Below are positions 17,570-52,635 of a stretch of DNA of 64,000 bases, piece by piece. Each line of letters starts with the position of its first letter. The stretch's first letter is position 1. Both the position numbers and the translations under genes were made by a program. The notes beneath the pieces are model-generated. The model saw nothing but the letters and a program-made list of their open reading frames with translations. It ran no database searches and had not been told where the DNA came from. The stretch is from a virus, in IMG/VR virus record IMGVR_UViG_3300009370_000003. One strand, 5' to 3'.

Positions 17570-18274
17570 ATGGCTTTACCAAAGCAGACCGCACCGAAGT
17601 ATAAATGCATACTTCCAAGTGACGGTTCAGAAGTGGAGTTTCGACCATTTCTAGTTAAAGAGCAAAAAGTATTAATGCTTGCTCAGGAACAAGAAAAGGA
17701 TGAAGCAATGTTTGTTGCAGTGCAAGACCTTATCGAAGCAGTAACTTTCGGAAAGGTTAAATCCAAACAGTTACCTGTTATCGACATGGAATATTTGTTC
17801 CTTAAAGTTCGATCAGTATCGGTAGGAGAAACAGCAACAGTAACCTTGTCTTGCCACGACCCCAAATGTGAAGGAGGGAATGGAGAGGCAGTTGTTAATT
17901 TAGATGATGTGGAAGTAGTAGGAGACGAACCTGAACACAAAATTATGATTAGTGATGAATTAGGAATTGAGTTAAGATACCCAAGGATAAGTGATGTAGA
18001 AGCAACACAACACCTTGAGGGAGGAGCTCAAACTATTGAAATGCTGAAGCAGTGTATGGTGACAATATTTGATGAGGAAGAGGTCTACACAGTTCGAGAT
18101 AGTTCTACAAATGAACTAAACGAATTTGTTGAGACACTAACAATGACTCAATTAGAATTGTTAACTGCATTTTTTCAAGGCATACCAGTATTGAAGAAGG
18201 AAGTCGAAACAGAATGTAAAGTGTGTGGAAAGGAAATTAGAACTGAATTAGTAGGTTTACAAAGTTTTTTCTAG
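17570..18274 (+). CDS. gp26: Baseplate hub subunit gp26
   Basis: MALPK...P.Y...LPS, FRPFLVKEQK.L, D.EYLFL..R..SVGE, CxxC, ends GLQSFF. Confidence 0.93.
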   Translation: MALPKQTAPKYKCILPSDGSEVEFRPFLVKEQKVLMLAQEQEKDEAMFVAVQDLIEAVTFGKVKSKQLPVIDMEYLFLKVRSVSVGETATVTLSCHDPKCEGGNGEAVVNLDDVEVVGDEPEHKIMISDELGIELRYPRISDVEATQHLEGGAQTIEMLKQCMVTIFDEEEVYTVRDSSTNELNEFVETLTMTQLELLTAFFQGIPVLKKEVETECKVCGKEIRTELVGLQSFF

Positions 18275-18324
18275 TAGCCCTTTCTCATGATAGTCTAATA
18301 AACTATTTAAACACAAACTTTCAA

Positions 18325-18471
18325 ATGATGCAACATCATGGCTACTCTCTTAGAGAGTTAGATGACATGATGCCATGGGAAAGGGAAATTTACATTAAAT
18401 TATTACTTCAACATTTAGAAGAAGAACGGGAACGAGAAAAAGCTCGTGCCCAAAAAGCAAGAAGCAGATAG
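18325..18471 (+). CDS. gp51: Baseplate hub assembly chaperone gp51-like (may be made as a -1 frameshift fusion to gp26)
   Basis: MMQHHGYSLRELDDMMPWEREIYIKLLLQHLEEE; frame is open upstream to 18271. Confidence 0.85.
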   Translation: MMQHHGYSLRELDDMMPWEREIYIKLLLQHLEEEREREKARAQKARSR

Positions 18472-19144: not shown

Positions 19145-21487
19145 ATGGCAAAAAAAGACGAAGACGGTCGCTCGAGTAAGCAAGCCGATGCATTTCTAAA
19201 AAAGGATCAACAACGATCCGAGAAATTGCAACAAGATAGGACAGACGCCCTTGAAAGGTGGACGAAGGCTAACGCTAATACTTATAAAAAATCTGCTGAG
19301 AAACTAAATGCTGCAGCTGAATCTGGCATCAAGGCCATGCAGGCAAAGGAAAAGGCAGACGCATTAGAAGTTGCAAATAGAGAAAGAATGGCAGCTTCAA
19401 GAGGTGTCTCTCTAGCCCAATTCGAAAAGACCATGGACGCAACCATGAAAGAAGGTTGGAGTGCAACAGAAGGAGTCTTCGAACCCTTAGACGAACTCGG
19501 AAAGTCTATGGGTAAAATCCAAGTTGACGGAACTATGGGTAAATCCCTTGGTTCTGCAAGTGGTGCCATTAAAGAATTAACTGGTGGTCTATTAGACCTT
19601 GGTGAAATGACTGGTGATGCAATGGATAAAGTGAAAGCAGTTGGAACACTCATTGCAACTCCGTTCAAAGTTGCAAACAATGCTATCGCAGGTGCAACAA
19701 AATTCTTTGGTAAGGAATTCAATCCCGGCCAGAAGATGGCAGACTGGTGGGGTGGAACTGAAACTCTTATAGAGGACGGTGATAAAAAAGCTACGAAAGG
19801 ATTTAGAGATTTAAAATTCAGTGAAAAAATGGGTAGGATATTTAGGCCATTTAGTCAGGGAGCTGAAGACGCAAAAGATAAATCAGAAGAAGGTGGTTCA
19901 AAAGTTTCTCAAGCTGGTGGTATACTATCTGCAGCTGGAGGTGATATAGAAGATGGTTCAGCTGAAGTTCCTAAAGCTGGTTCTAGACTATCTAAAGCTG
20001 GTTCTAAATTAGCTGATGGTTTTAATTCTTCCATGGAGAAGTTATCCGACTTAGGTGGAAGAATGAAAGAGAGTGCAAAGGCAATGGGAGCAGCGACTAT
20101 TGCATGGATAAAAAACTTCCCAGCAATGATGAAAGGATTGTGGGGAACCATAAAACAAATGGGGAAATCTGCAGCAGCATTCTTAATGGCTCTCCCAGCA
20201 CTTATAATATCTAGTATTGCATTTGTCGCAGGATTAATTGCCTCTGCAGTTAGTATGATGATTGCAGCTGCACCAATAATTGGTATTGCATTATTAATAG
20301 GGTTAGCAGTAGCAGCTCTTGTAATGGGTATTATGTTCTTAGTCCAAAACTTCGAATCTATTAAAACAACTATATCAGAAAAGATTACTGCAATGATAGA
20401 TAAAGTCAAAGCGGTTGTGGGTAATATCGCAGACTTCTTTTCTAATATCTGGCAAGATATATCTGACTTCATTCGAGAAAAGGTATTAAAGATTAAATCA
20501 ATCTTAGGTCTTACTTCTGATGCTGAAGAAGAAGAGTTAAAAGGTATTGAAGAAAGAAAGGCCAAGAAACAAGCAATGACCGATGAGGCAAACAAACAAG
20601 CCGCAGCAGAAATTGATGAAATGAGAGCTAACGGTGAACTCGAAGGTATGAGTCGTAGAGAAATCAGGAACCTTACTAAAGAGAAAGAAGCAGAAGCCCT
20701 CGCCCGCGTGCAAGAGGAAGCTGAGTTCCAAGCAACATCAGATGAAGACCTCTTGGCCATGAAACACAAACATGAGAAGTCACTCGCAGAAGAATTAGAA
20801 AACAAGAAAAATAGGGACTTTAATAAGTCCAAAGATGAAAGTCAGTGGGAACAAACGAAAGGTAACGAATTTAAGATGCATCGTTTGAATCTTGACGAAT
20901 CAGCTGAGGACGGTGGAAAAGCAGAATTCATGGAAATGCGAGAAGACGATCGCAACCAACGGTATGGAACAGAAGAAAATATAGAAAATAGAATATTATA
21001 CGATCAATTCAATGCAGATAGAGCAACAGACGAACTTAAAACAAGAGACGATTATATTGCATCTAAAGAATTAACCGAAGAAGATAAAGACGCTATCCAT
21101 GCAAAAGAACTTGGTTGGACACTGGGAGAATATCAGGCAGTAAAAGAGGCAGAAATTGCAGCAGGAAAGGAACACGAAGATTATTACGAAGGCAAGGGAT
21201 TCGGTGAGACTGACGATGGGTATGACTATGCACTACTTAATGCAAGAGCAAATTCAGAAGCTATTGATAGGGCAGACGGGGATAGACTTAAAGATGCTCG
21301 GGACGAAGCAGAACAACAAAAATACCTAAGTGACTTAAACACCTATGGTGCTGGTGGAAGCTACATACCACCAATGAATGCAGTTGCAGTTCAAAATAAT
21401 AGTGCTTCTAATATGGTTAGAATGCAAGACCCGTCAACAACAAATCCAGAGCCTACTGGCACTCGTCTTTCTGTAGTTCCAGCTTAG
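19145..21487 (+). CDS. Probable tail tape measure protein (gp29-like)
   Basis: 780 aa, helical, with a central hydrophobic Ala/Ile-rich segment; downstream of gp26/gp51. Confidence 0.7.
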   Translation: MAKKDEDGRSSKQADAFLKKDQQRSEKLQQDRTDALERWTKANANTYKKSAEKLNAAAESGIKAMQAKEKADALEVANRERMAASRGVSLAQFEKTMDATMKEGWSATEGVFEPLDELGKSMGKIQVDGTMGKSLGSASGAIKELTGGLLDLGEMTGDAMDKVKAVGTLIATPFKVANNAIAGATKFFGKEFNPGQKMADWWGGTETLIEDGDKKATKGFRDLKFSEKMGRIFRPFSQGAEDAKDKSEEGGSKVSQAGGILSAAGGDIEDGSAEVPKAGSRLSKAGSKLADGFNSSMEKLSDLGGRMKESAKAMGAATIAWIKNFPAMMKGLWGTIKQMGKSAAAFLMALPALIISSIAFVAGLIASAVSMMIAAAPIIGIALLIGLAVAALVMGIMFLVQNFESIKTTISEKITAMIDKVKAVVGNIADFFSNIWQDISDFIREKVLKIKSILGLTSDAEEEELKGIEERKAKKQAMTDEANKQAAAEIDEMRANGELEGMSRREIRNLTKEKEAEALARVQEEAEFQATSDEDLLAMKHKHEKSLAEELENKKNRDFNKSKDESQWEQTKGNEFKMHRLNLDESAEDGGKAEFMEMREDDRNQRYGTEENIENRILYDQFNADRATDELKTRDDYIASKELTEEDKDAIHAKELGWTLGEYQAVKEAEIAAGKEHEDYYEGKGFGETDDGYDYALLNARANSEAIDRADGDRLKDARDEAEQQKYLSDLNTYGAGGSYIPPMNAVAVQNNSASNMVRMQDPSTTNPEPTGTRLSVVPA

Positions 21488-51048: not shown

Positions 51049-51255
51049 TCAGTCTTCAAATGAAACTACTATCTCACATATATGGTCTGTATCATTACAA
51101 AATTCTTTTACGAAATCTGAAGCAAAGAGTAATTCCTCTCTGCTTCTGACTTCTAATCTGACAACATTTCTGTTATCAATTTCGGTTGAATTGCTTTTGA
51201 CCAATTCATCGGTGAGCTCATTACGATTTCTGAATTGTCGTAAGAGGCTTACTCT
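51049..51255 (-). CDS. -1 frame extension of the upstream lipoprotein (68 codons, no ATG/GTG)
   Basis: Open frame RVSLLRQFRNR...CEIVVSFED*, entered via C CCA AAA at 51255-51261. Confidence 0.6.
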   Translation of the reverse strand, partial: RVSLLRQFRNRNELTDELVKSNSTEIDNRNVVRLEVRSREELLFASDFVKEFCNDTDHICEIVVSFED

Positions 51256-51527
51256 TTTGGGCTTTCTGTCGCTTCTTCACCTTGTATCGCATTAGTTTCT
51301 TCATCGATGTAATCGGCAGCTTCCGCTACAACACCTGCTGTGGTATCACCCACAAATGCAGCTGCATCAACAACATCTTCTGTTACTGCTGAAACAATTT
51401 GAGAAGTACCAGTTACAACTGAATCAACAGTGCCTGTGACAACAGTTTTACCTGCTTCCCAAACTCCGCCGACTGTTGAACAACCAGCAATTAAGACTAG
51501 AAAACTTATAGCTATTAAGTTTTTCAT
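51249..51527 (-). CDS. Small lipoprotein
   Basis: MKNLIAISFLVLIAG-C lipobox; amphipathic repeats; AAGGA RBS. Confidence 0.8.
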   Translation of the reverse strand: MKNLIAISFLVLIAGCSTVGGVWEAGKTVVTGTVDSVVTGTSQIVSAVTEDVVDAAAFVGDTTAGVVAEAADYIDEETNAIQGEEATESPKE

Positions 51528-51539
51528 ATCTGTTCTTCC

Positions 51540-51560
51540 TTATTATTATTATTATTATTA
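51540..51560 (-). repeat. (TAA)7 tract next to the RBS
   Basis: ttattattattattattatta on +. Confidence 0.9.
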
Positions 51561-51752
51561 CTGCTCAAACTGAGCCAGTAGATTATTTGCACTCCATGTG
51601 CAACAATATAGTATTTAGGTGTTAATGGTTCTCCAAAAGCTCATTTAAATGGGCTGTGTGATACCAAATGTCATACATTATCTCCAGTGCATGAAGCACT
51701 AGCATAATAGACAATAGCAATGCACATATCTTTAACCACTTTATCTGATGTT

Positions 51753-52301
51753 TCACTCTTTATCTTTATCTCGTGGGAATAGACCGACACTTGGTCTTCT
51801 TGATTCATCCTCTAATTTCACTCCAACACCGACTGCTGGTTCATCTTTAATGGTGACATTCCTATAATATATAATGACTTCACCCATCTGTTTGATGTAT
51901 CGTCTTAATTCTTGCATATTTGCAGACATGGCTTCATAGTCACCAATCGTAGTTGCAACAAATACGACGCTTCCACCATTCTTATCTTTAATGTCATCTA
52001 AGAATCTATCAAGATAAGTATAACCTTCTGGCCAATCAGGATTCTCTTTACCCAGTTTACAAGATTTGTCTTCATTTCTTTCTCTTATACCTTCCTCATT
52101 CTTGAGACAAGGATTGGCAATCTTTGCTTCAGATACAACATACCATTGTGGTTCAATCAAATTGATTTCCCTTGGTAATTGAGGTTGCATGATTTCAATC
52201 TCTATGGGTTTGGAAACTATCTCCACCTCTTTGGTTCCCATTAGGGAACACGAACTAAGGAGTGTTACCGCTATTAAGGCTGCTAAGCTCTTTGCTATCA
52301 T
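51753..52301 (-). CDS. Putative o-spanin (Rz1-like lipoprotein)
   Basis: LLSSC lipobox, Pro-rich, YE.MS.NMQELRRYI..I.YY; overlaps the i-spanin. Confidence 0.75.
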   Translation of the reverse strand: MIAKSLAALIAVTLLSSCSLMGTKEVEIVSKPIEIEIMQPQLPREINLIEPQWYVVSEAKIANPCLKNEEGIRERNEDKSCKLGKENPDWPEGYTYLDRFLDDIKDKNGGSVVFVATTIGDYEAMSANMQELRRYIKQMGEVIIYYRNVTIKDEPAVGVGVKLEDESRRPSVGLFPRDKDKE

Positions 52302-52635
52302 CTTCTATACTCTTAAATACATCAGCTGTTCCTTTGTTTATTCGGATTTCAATTAAGCCCGGCCTTGCCTCTGCCAACTGATTTAAATTATGCCTACGAA
52401 ATATATCTAAGTATTCGTTCTTCTCCTGCTCAATCTGAGCATTACGAGCTGTCATTTGCATTAAGGATTGACCTTGCTTCTCATATGACTCTTTCATCAC
52501 TGCCATTGCAGCTGTCTGTTCTTCGATTGCAACTTCGAGCTTATAGTTATTTGCTTTCAGTGTTTGATTATCACTGTATAAGAAATAACTAAAAAGACCA
52601 AGTGCAACCAGTAAACCTATTAATACTTGTTGCAT
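52255..52635 (-). CDS. Putative i-spanin (Rz-like)
   Basis: N-terminal TM plus coiled coil, A..RPGLIE.RIN.GT. Confidence 0.75.
   Translation of the reverse strand: MQQVLIGLLVALGLFSYFLYSDNQTLKANNYKLEVAIEEQTAAMAVMKESYEKQGQSLMQMTARNAQIEQEKNEYLDIFRRHNLNQLAEARPGLIEIRINKGTADVFKSIEDDSKELSSLNSGNTP

What the first reader, a model, noticed from the sequence alone, without database searches (positions are those of the whole stretch)
51049..51527. Lipoprotein gene with a probable -1 programmed frameshift and pseudoknot/hairpin switch
Seen: the 92-aa lipoprotein ends AGC CCA AAA GAG TAA, placing an X XXY YYZ heptamer (C CCA AAA, 51261-51255) one codon before the stop. The -1 frame stays open for 68 codons with no ATG/GTG and fills the otherwise empty gap to 51049. 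Eight nt after the heptamer is a stem CTC-TTACGA/TCGTAA-T-GAG. Its loop (CAATTCA) is the exact complement of a downstream TGAATTG, giving a pseudoknot. That TGAATTG can instead pair with a second CAATTCA further on, so two exclusive folds exist. Established: a slippery heptamer plus a nearby 3' structure drives -1 frameshifting. Inference: short (92 aa) and long (~159 aa, two extra Cys) isoforms of an envelope lipoprotein, close to the spanins. Phage frameshifts are usually reported in capsid/tail genes, so this would be an unusual target.
Basis: partly seen in the sequence, partly recalled or inferred. Interest (0 to 1): 0.85.

Follow-up and report, generated by a model that had tools for sequence, protein, structure and literature searches.

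The report
Frameshifted phage lipoprotein with hidden domain
A small envelope lipoprotein gene of an uncultured marine T4-like phage almost certainly uses a programmed -1 ribosomal frameshift to make a second, longer protein with a two-cysteine domain found in no longer protein in the databases, and about 85 related phage loci keep the same arrangement.

Summary
The minus-strand lipoprotein ORF (51527..51249, 92 aa) ends AGC CCA AAA GAG TAA. The in-frame heptamer C_CCA_AAA lies at 51261..51255. The -1 frame runs open to 51049, and a hairpin starts 5 nt after the heptamer.

Comparison makes the frameshift convincing. Of 107 non-redundant homologous loci from marine viral and metagenome contigs, 85 keep a -1-frame ORF ending in a domain with two invariant Cys. 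Of these, 79 carry a canonical X_XXY_YYZ heptamer within two codons of the 0-frame stop. The heptamer type differs between lineages (CCCAAAA/C, GGGAAAG/C, AAAAAAG). In several lineages a -1-frame TGA sits directly before the heptamer and the 0-frame stop directly after it.

- 61 of 85 extensions have no ATG/GTG/TTG ahead of the domain.
- The heptamer's first base is held against codon bias.
- A hairpin 4-9 nt downstream is strongly enriched and covaries.
- The extension evolves as coding sequence.
- No in-frame fusion exists in about 1.8 billion representative proteins.

The proposed pseudoknot/hairpin switch is confined to the window's own lineage and is not supported as a conserved feature. 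The protein's function is unknown; it is probably an envelope or lysis-cassette accessory. I found no prior report. An earlier first-reader note of this scan flagged the same stretch.

The parts
51612..51618 (-). CTAAATA motif upstream of the gene, resembling a T4-type late promoter. Context only; function not tested.
Evidence: Read. The promoter meaning is from memory of T4-like late promoters.
51249..51527 (-). 0-frame lipoprotein ORF, 92 aa (P0002): signal peptide, lipobox Cys16 (51482..51480), then about 65 acidic residues predicted helical with 11-residue hydrophobic periodicity.
   Evidence: Cys16 invariant in 20 homologues; single long helix, low confidence; periodicity peak 3.7 residues.
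51255..51261 (-). Slippery heptamer C_CCA_AAA, in the 0 frame, one codon before the stop.
   Evidence: A canonical heptamer is present at this place in 79/85 homologues with the extension. First base held against codon bias.
51249..51251 (-). 0-frame stop TAA, lying in the spacer / base of the hairpin.
51215..51249 (-). Hairpin 1, the predicted frameshift stimulator. It starts 5 nt 3' of the heptamer. Inner stem TTACGA/TCGTAA, 11-nt loop.
   Evidence: Covariation in related sequences. Position-specific enrichment of hairpins across the family.
51183..51211 (-). Hairpin 2 (TGAATTG 51208..51202 pairs with CAATTCA 51193..51187). TGAATTG could alternatively pair with the hairpin-1 loop 51237..51231. 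Specific to the window's lineage.
51049..51261 (-). -1-frame extension (P0001, 70 codons from CCC, then the stop at 51051..51049). The long isoform is residues 1-89 of the lipoprotein plus these 70, giving 159 aa.
   Evidence: Homologous -1 ORFs in 85 loci. Coding signature.
51052..51195 (-). C-terminal beta-beta-alpha-beta domain of the long isoform, with the two family-invariant Cys (codons 51099..51097 and 51078..51076). It follows a basic linker of about 21 residues that is predicted disordered.
   Evidence: only C55 and C62 invariant in 39 sequences. (pLDDT about 80 for residues 23-68).
51622..51756 (-). Small one-TM ORF (44 aa, GTG start) between the o-spanin and the lipoprotein. Similar small ORFs lie upstream of the lipoprotein in distant loci. 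Context only.
51753..52635 (-). Overlapping i-spanin (52635..52255) and o-spanin (52301..51753) directly upstream. Context only.
   Evidence: phrog_739, phrog_812. Synteny kept in most clade-A loci.

Best explanation
This is a conserved programmed -1 ribosomal frameshift in a phage envelope lipoprotein gene.

Proposed mechanism (inferred, not shown): most ribosomes decode ...Ser-Pro-Lys-Glu and stop, giving a 92-aa prolipoprotein (about 77 aa once matured and lipidated at Cys16). A fraction pause over C_CCA_AAA because the hairpin 5 nt downstream resists unwinding. The P-site tRNA-Pro and A-site tRNA-Lys re-pair one base back (CCC AAA). Translation then continues in the -1 frame for 68 more codons. 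The result is a 159-aa isoform that adds a basic flexible linker and a compact beta-beta-alpha-beta domain. That domain is probably closed by a disulfide between the two invariant Cys in the periplasm.

The frameshift efficiency therefore sets a fixed short:long ratio from one late transcript.

Shown by comparison: the slip site, the frame relation, the hairpin, the coding selection on the extension and its lack of a start codon.

Inferred: that the slip actually occurs and at what rate, lipidation and outer-membrane sorting, the disulfide, and the role. My best guess at the role is an accessory of the lysis/envelope cassette in which short and long forms act together.
For: (1) Anatomy in the window.

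(2) 85 of 107 non-redundant homologous loci (identity down to about 42%) keep a -1 ORF of 35-67 codons past the 0-frame stop, with two invariant Cys.

(3) 79/85 have a canonical in-frame X_XXY_YYZ at most 2 codons from the 0-frame stop: CCCAAAA 31, AAAAAAG 17, GGGAAAG 16, CCCAAAC 12, GGGAAAC 2, AAAAAAA 1. None of the 22 homologues lacking the -1 ORF has one in the last 13 codons.

(4) In 10 loci the overlap of the two frames is exactly the 7 nt of the heptamer, with a -1-frame TGA just before and the 0-frame stop just after.

(5) Heptamer types interchange repeatedly on the protein tree while the arrangement persists (quick tree, weakly resolved).

(6) Synonymous-site constraint: AGC is 28% of AGY codons in these genes but 32/32 before CCA. 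GAG is 12% of GAR codons but 14/14 before GGA/GAA_AAG.

(7) 61/85 extensions have no ATG/GTG/TTG ahead of the domain, only 2 have an ATG, and none is positionally conserved.

(8) Extension substitutions: 45% fall at third codon positions. The synonymous fraction is 0.29 in this frame against 0.15 and 0.07 in the others.

(9) Hairpin anchored 4-9 nt 3' of the heptamer: mean -9.8 kcal/mol (44 non-redundant sequences) against -4.2 at 176 random positions in the same loci, Mann-Whitney p = 2e-14. In a 19-sequence sub-alignment 77% of cells pair, against 16-38% when the partners are slid. Four pairs show both-side changes, and the covariation score beats 500/500 shuffles.

(10) No in-frame fusion. 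All lipoprotein homologues are at most 122 aa (longer ones checked). A profile of the extension finds only 12 fragments of 26-69 aa among 1.84 billion representative proteins.

(11) A metatranscriptome contig from an independent study spans 51145-51505 colinearly, with no indel at the slip site. This support is weak.
Against: - There is no protein-level evidence, and the efficiency is unknown.
- The window's own hairpin is modest (z -1.46).
- From general knowledge of E. coli, C_CCA_AAA and X_XXA_AAC are weaker slip sites than X_XXA_AAG, so the long form may be rare.
- 6/85 loci have only imperfect sites (G_GAA_AAG, A_AAG_AAA).
- One lineage (P0020; six independent contigs) carries the Cys-domain ORF in the +1 frame without a -1 heptamer.
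- The counts come from related sequences, so they are not fully independent events.
- Homologues without the extension also fold stably after their stop (probably terminators). Raw folding z-scores alone therefore do not discriminate.
Confidence: 0.86

Rival explanations
1. The downstream ORF is a separate small gene, started on its own (at the TTG at 51204 in the window, or at a non-canonical codon) or by termination-reinitiation. No fusion protein is made.
For: The window has one TTG. Gene callers have occasionally called such fragments as stand-alone ORFs of 26-69 aa.
Against: 61/85 homologous ORFs have no ATG/GTG/TTG before the conserved domain, and the few that occur are not positionally conserved and lack SD-like context. 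This rival does not explain the heptamers, the wobble-base constraint or the stop-heptamer-stop design. A real overlapping neighbour gene in the extension-less clade does have its own ATG or GTG in all four loci read, which shows what independent initiation looks like here.
Confidence: 0.04
2. The frame change happens at the nucleic-acid level, by transcriptional slippage or DNA phase variation in the A-run, rather than on the ribosome.
For: Some clades have runs of 6-7 A (AAAAAAG).
Against: Most sites have only 3-4 A (CCCAAAC, GGGAAAG), too short for known slippage. The two-triplet pattern with a constrained first base fits tandem tRNA re-pairing. More than 100 independent assemblies agree on the length, and an RNA contig shows no indel. 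Contigs do hide rare variants.
Confidence: 0.04
3. The -1 ORF is not translated. The region is a conserved RNA element or leftover of a decayed gene, and the open frame is incidental.
For: The first 20 or so codons overlap a conserved hairpin, so part of the apparent peptide conservation (the ..FSLF..EKE.. type) may be driven by RNA.
Against: The frame stays open in 85 divergent loci, two Cys are invariant, substitutions are in excess at third positions, the synonymous fraction is highest in this frame, and the domain model is confident.
Confidence: 0.03
4. Sequencing or assembly error, or a pseudogene: the real gene is one continuous 159-aa ORF.
For: None beyond the homopolymer context.
Against: The same split is seen in contigs from many studies and assemblers. 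No continuous version exists in any database searched.
Confidence: 0.01

Closest known systems
Phage lambda-type tail assembly chaperone G/GT frameshift (Xu, Hendrix & Duda 2004; from memory and as cited in PMC10885494)
   Same: A -1 slip at a heptamer near the 3' end of a short ORF; lambda uses G_GGA_AAG, the very heptamer of one clade here. The product is the short protein plus a C-terminal extension domain. The arrangement is conserved while sequences diverge. A fixed short:long ratio is presumed to be the point.
   Different: No sequence relation. The gene sits after the spanins, not before the tape measure. The product is a secreted lipoprotein, not a cytoplasmic assembly chaperone. A conserved 3' hairpin is present here.
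E. coli dnaX tau/gamma frameshift
   Same: A_AAA_AAG (used by one clade here) with a hairpin about 6 nt downstream. Classical bacterial tandem-slip mechanism.
   Different: In dnaX the shift truncates the protein, whereas here it extends it. dnaX also has an upstream SD-like stimulator, which I did not examine here.
T7 capsid gene 10A/10B and IS3-family OrfA/OrfAB frameshifts
   Same: A minor longer isoform made by -1 PRF close to the end of the upstream frame. IS3 elements combine A_AAA_AAG with a hairpin or pseudoknot and a nearby 0-frame stop.
   Different: Different proteins and roles. No homology.
Small phage and host envelope lipoproteins (o-spanin Rz1; T5 Llp and Cor-type exclusion lipoproteins; Braun lipoprotein Lpp)
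   Same: A short signal peptide with lipobox, a small mature protein in the periplasm of Gram-negative hosts, and location next to the spanins. Like Lpp, the mature part is predicted to be one long helix.
   Different: No detectable sequence similarity to any of them. 11-residue rather than 7-residue periodicity. To my knowledge none of these is made in two forms by recoding.

Membership tests
Programmed -1 ribosomal frameshift cassette (X_XXY_YYZ + 3' stimulator) | Slippery heptamer in the correct phase of the upstream frame | tested here: met
   C_CCA_AAA at 51261..51255. A canonical heptamer at the equivalent place in 79/85 homologues.
Programmed -1 ribosomal frameshift cassette (X_XXY_YYZ + 3' stimulator) | Overlapping -1 ORF that continues past the 0-frame stop and has no initiation signal of its own | tested here: met
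Programmed -1 ribosomal frameshift cassette (X_XXY_YYZ + 3' stimulator) | Stable RNA structure 5-9 nt 3' of the heptamer | tested here: met
   Prediction level only. Hairpin at spacer 5 in the window. Family-wide enrichment, p = 2e-14. Covariation in A5.
Programmed -1 ribosomal frameshift cassette (X_XXY_YYZ + 3' stimulator) | Arrangement conserved in homologues, and -1 ORF under coding selection | tested here: met
Programmed -1 ribosomal frameshift cassette (X_XXY_YYZ + 3' stimulator) | Trans-frame protein actually produced | not testable with these tools
   Needs a reporter assay or mass spectrometry.
H-type frameshift-stimulating pseudoknot / RNA switch | Loop-to-downstream pairing conserved or covarying among homologues | tested here: not met
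   7-nt pairing only in WIN, L020 and L027; 6 nt in L112. Absent in L002, L003, L024 and L025 and in other clades.
Bacterial lipoprotein (Lgt/LspA substrate) | N-terminal signal peptide ending in a lipobox with invariant Cys | tested here: met
   Checked by motif only: M-K-N, a hydrophobic stretch, then I-A-G-C. Cys16 is invariant in the alignment. Lipidation itself is not testable here.
Tail assembly chaperone G/GT family | Homology to TAC proteins and position upstream of the tape-measure gene | tested here: not met
   No PHROG or Pfam TAC hit. The gene lies between the spanins and 2OG-oxygenase genes.
o-spanin (Rz1-like) | Match to spanin families | tested here: not met
   P0002 and P0001 give no spanin hit, whereas the two upstream genes do.
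BON / ring-building-motif periplasmic alpha-beta domains | Fold similarity of the extension domain | tested here: inconclusive
   Best VIA Z 3.7-4.7 (CdsD, PrgH, BonA, DolP among the rows), within the range of chance arrangements. No Foldseek match at E <= 0.001.

The most novel reading that the evidence does not exclude
This would be an ancient, previously unannotated recoding module of marine phages, present in T4-like phages, in contigs whose completeness estimates imply genomes of about 350 kb, and in one of about 64 kb. A -1 frameshift fixes the ratio of a short and a long envelope lipoprotein. The long form carries a disulfide domain that is found only as 26-69-aa stand-alone fragments in protein databases, because it has no start codon. 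The slippery heptamer has been replaced repeatedly while the frameshift was kept, and one lineage may have moved to a -2/+1 event. It would be the first conserved frameshift known in a phage envelope or lysis-cassette gene.
Probability: 0.8. Interest if true: 0.75.

Novelty: new member of a known kind. Interest (0 to 1): 0.72.

Why it matters
Conserved frameshifts in tailed phages are textbook cases only for tail assembly chaperones and a few capsid genes. A second, widely conserved case in a secreted lipoprotein would show that phages also use recoding to set the stoichiometry of envelope proteins.

It also exposes a protein domain that gene callers cannot see. This warns that part of the 'non-coding gaps' in phage genomes is trans-frame coding sequence.

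The family offers a natural series of different heptamers and hairpins in one context, which is useful for studying what tunes bacterial frameshift efficiency. Its place beside the spanins gives a testable lead on lysis or superinfection control in abundant uncultured marine phages.

Tried and rejected
- The search for related loci with the window's extension peptide alone found nothing. The patterns were too specific; relatives were reached through the lipoprotein instead.
- blastn and tblastn against 50,697 GenBank phage records found no match for the region or for three family members. A scan of 185,579 species genomes found none. No cultured carrier and no host clue were found.
- Pfam and PHROGs gave no family for the extension and only noise for the lipoprotein. 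The ESM Atlas returned only unnamed viral 'lipoprotein' clusters.
- RNAalifold on the MAFFT alignment A3 returned no structure, because the stems are out of register between lineages. I replaced it with anchored per-sequence folding and a gap-free sub-alignment.
- Whole-segment folding z-scores do not separate the slip-site segment from the post-stop segment of extension-less homologues.
- Foldseek against the PDB gave no significant match. VIA gave only Z < 5.
- Complex prediction on three copies of the mature helix gave no verdict.
- The +1-frame ORF after the lipoprotein in the L080 group looked like another recoding case. It has its own ATG or GTG and is an ordinary overlapping Zn-ribbon-like gene.
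- Literature searches for a frameshifted phage lipoprotein found nothing relevant.

Full report
**1. What is in the window**

On the minus strand, ORF 51527..51249 encodes 92 aa (P0002). It has a typical lipoprotein signal peptide: M-K-N, a hydrophobic stretch, then the lipobox I-A-G-C with Cys16. It ends AGC CCA AAA GAG TAA. The heptamer C_CCA_AAA (51261..51255) is therefore in the X_XXY_YYZ phase, one codon before the stop.

The -1 frame has a TGA five codons upstream of the heptamer. It is then open for 70 codons counted from CCC, to the stop at 51051..51049 (P0001). Its only start-type codon is a TTG at 51204. A slip would give a 159-aa protein: residues 1-89 plus the 70.

A hairpin occupies 51249..51215, starting 5 nt after the heptamer. 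A second hairpin (51211..51183) uses TGAATTG, which is also complementary to the loop of the first.

The surrounding genes show a T4-like marine myovirus: gp6-like and gp5-like baseplate proteins and NrdA/B. Directly upstream lie an overlapping i-spanin/o-spanin pair and a 44-aa membrane ORF. Three 2OG-Fe(II) oxygenase genes lie downstream.

**2. Is it more than chance?**

Within the window alone, not decisively. Of 233 stop-to-stop ORFs of at least 60 codons, 4 combine a terminal in-frame heptamer with a long open -1 frame. The window's hairpin 1 is modest (-7.7 kcal/mol, z -1.46). The case rests on comparison with homologues.

**3. Comparative evidence**

*Loci collected.* Scans with the lipoprotein and with an alignment of its homologues (A1) returned 171 loci from IMG/VR and metagenome contigs. 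Of these, 107 were non-redundant around the gene's 3' end and had enough downstream sequence.

*The -1 ORF.* In 85 of the 107, with lipoprotein identity down to about 42%, the -1 frame stays open for 35-67 codons beyond the 0-frame stop. It ends in a recognisable domain: a helix, then (Y/F)-C, 5-7 residues, C. In an alignment of 39 diverse extensions the two Cys are the only invariant columns.

*The heptamers.* 79 of the 85 carry a canonical in-frame heptamer no more than two codons from the stop, and the heptamer differs between lineages:

| Heptamer | Loci |
|---|---|
| CCCAAAA | 31 |
| AAAAAAG | 17 |
| GGGAAAG | 16 |
| CCCAAAC | 12 |
| GGGAAAC | 2 |
| AAAAAAA | 1 |

Six loci have near-canonical sites (G_GAA_AAG, A_AAG_AAA). 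None of the 22 homologues without the -1 ORF has a heptamer in its last 13 codons.

*Stop-heptamer-stop design.* In 10 loci the -1 frame has a TGA immediately 5' of the heptamer and the 0 frame stops immediately 3' of it. There, the only place to change frame without meeting a stop is the heptamer itself.

*Turnover.* On a quick and poorly resolved tree of the mature lipoprotein, heptamer types interchange many times. The extension-less lineages are nested among those with it, which suggests an old frameshift with turnover of the slip site and a few losses.

*Codon bias.* The heptamer's first base is a synonymous position of the preceding codon, and it is held against codon bias. AGC makes up 28% of AGY codons in these genes but 32 of 32 before CCA. 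GAG makes up 12% of GAR codons but 14 of 14 before GGA/GAA_AAG. These sequences are related, so the counts overstate the number of independent events.

*No independent start.* 61 of 85 extensions have no ATG, GTG or TTG ahead of the conserved domain. Only two have an ATG, and no start is positionally conserved. By contrast, a genuinely separate overlapping gene in the extension-less L080 group has its own ATG or GTG.

*Coding signature.* In the last 32 codons of 26 distinct sequences, 45% of pairwise differences fall at third positions. The synonymous fraction of differing codons is 0.29 in this frame, against 0.15 and 0.07 in the other two.

*No in-frame version anywhere.* All 106 lipoprotein homologues found among 5.8 billion clusters are at most 122 aa. 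Of the seven of 114-120 aa, all read owe their length to upstream start calls; the 122-aa one is an unrelated chimera. An exhaustive HMM search with the extension profile over 1.84 billion representative proteins found only 12 fragments of 26-69 aa. The domain is therefore absent from every protein longer than 69 aa in that library.

**4. The RNA element**

Per-sequence folding shows a hairpin beginning 4-9 nt after the heptamer in nearly every lineage, with quite different sequences.

- The best hairpin anchored at that spacing averages -9.8 kcal/mol over 44 non-redundant sequences. At 176 random positions in the same loci it averages -4.2 (Mann-Whitney p = 2e-14). 68% reach -8 kcal/mol, against 12% of the controls.
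- In a gap-free alignment of 19 close relatives (A5), the stem I specified pairs in 77% of cells, against 16-38% when the 3' partners are slid by 1-3 columns. Four pairs show changes on both sides (12 cells). The covariation score exceeds all 500 shuffles.
- Between more distant members the inner stem is re-invented: TTACGA/TCGTAA, TCTCGG/CCGAGA, TCTGGC/GCCAGA, CGTCG/CGACG, TCAAC/GTTGA. In the short-extension clade the arms are pyrimidine/purine (..TTTTCTCT.. / ..AGAGAAAA..), with compensatory differences, for example between L132 and L162.
- The conserved peptide just after the slip site is therefore probably shaped partly by the RNA.

Loop-to-downstream complementarity of 7 nt occurs only in the window's close lineage, and 6 nt in L112. 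Most relatives have none. I treat it as lineage-specific and unproven. The conserved stimulator is a plain hairpin.

**5. The proteins**

*Lipoprotein.* Its mature part is acidic and is predicted as one long helix at low confidence. Its hydrophobicity has a sharp 3.7-residue period, that is 11-residue repeats rather than heptads. This fits either a surface-seeking amphipathic helix or a non-heptad bundle. A trimer prediction gave no verdict.

*Extension.* It models as a disordered basic linker of about 21 residues plus a beta-beta-alpha-beta domain with pLDDT about 80. The two Cys lie at the end of the helix and the start of the last strand, suggesting a periplasmic disulfide. This is an inference.

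*Fold searches.* They gave nothing significant. Weak rows (Z about 4) include periplasmic BON and ring-building domains, which I do not rely on.

**6. Distribution and expression**

- The family occurs only in viral and metagenome contigs. There is no hit in 50,697 GenBank phage records or in 185,579 species genomes.
- Clade A keeps the spanin-spanin-lipoprotein order.
- The short-extension clade lies on contigs of 37-83 kb estimated to be 11-23% complete, which implies genomes of roughly 350 kb. Another member is on a contig from a phage of about 64 kb.
- Metatranscriptome contigs cover the gene. One, from an independent study, spans 51145-51505 across the slip site without an indel. This is only weak evidence of transcription and against slippage at the RNA level.

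**7. Verdict**

A conserved -1 programmed ribosomal frameshift producing two lipoprotein isoforms is by far the best explanation (about 0.86). The rivals are independent initiation, nucleic-acid slippage, an untranslated RNA element and assembly error. Each fails to explain several of the conserved features.

The mechanism is classical. The target (a secreted phage lipoprotein next to the lysis genes), the breadth of conservation and the hidden domain are new as far as my searches show. Function remains open. I favour a role in the lysis/envelope programme in which the frameshift fixes the ratio of short to long form. Nothing here tests that.

Noticed in passing
window 17570-18471 (+): Possible second -1 frameshift. 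The gp26-like baseplate-hub ORF (17570..18274; phrog_150 positions 5-232 of 282) ends ...AGT TTT TTC TAG, which gives T_TTT_TTC directly before the stop. The -1 frame continues for 65 codons. These match the missing C-terminal part of the same family (phrog_150 positions 236-279) and phrog_634 'baseplate hub assembly catalyst'. It lies upstream of the tape-measure-like gene 19145..21487, the classical place of the tail-chaperone frameshift.
   Followed up: partly
window 51622-51756 (-); L145:1946-2146; L135:1661-1843: A 44-aa one-TM ORF (starting M-K-H-Q-I-K-W-L-K-I) lies between the o-spanin and the lipoprotein. Similar small ORFs (M-K-H-M-I-K-W-L-K-I...) lie one or two genes upstream of the lipoprotein in distant loci from apparently very large phages that lack detectable spanins. 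It may be a conserved partner gene. There is no PHROG hit.
   Followed up: partly
L026; L180-L185 (e.g. L183:620-860): One lineage (protein P0020; six independent contigs from different samples, identical here) has the Cys-domain ORF in the +1 frame relative to the lipoprotein. Its tail reads TCC CCA CAG TAA TAA and has no -1 heptamer. It would need a -2 (CCA to CCC) or +1 event, or it is a recent frameshift mutant.
   Followed up: partly
L080, L099, L117, L120 (3' end of the lipoprotein gene): In the extension-less clade a roughly 49-aa Cys-rich (Zn-ribbon-like) ORF overlaps the lipoprotein's last codons in the +1 frame. It has its own ATG or GTG, so it is an ordinary overlapping gene and not recoding.
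   Followed up: yes
window, ORF ends at about 13685 (+) and about 26973 (-): Two further ORFs end in an in-frame A_AAA_AAA directly before the stop, with a -1 frame open for 195 and 173 codons. These are probably just the next genes, but I did not look.
   Followed up: no
window 51545-51569 (-): A run of seven TAA/AAT triplets directly upstream of the lipoprotein's ribosome-binding site. The read-laying tool skipped this repeat.
   Followed up: no
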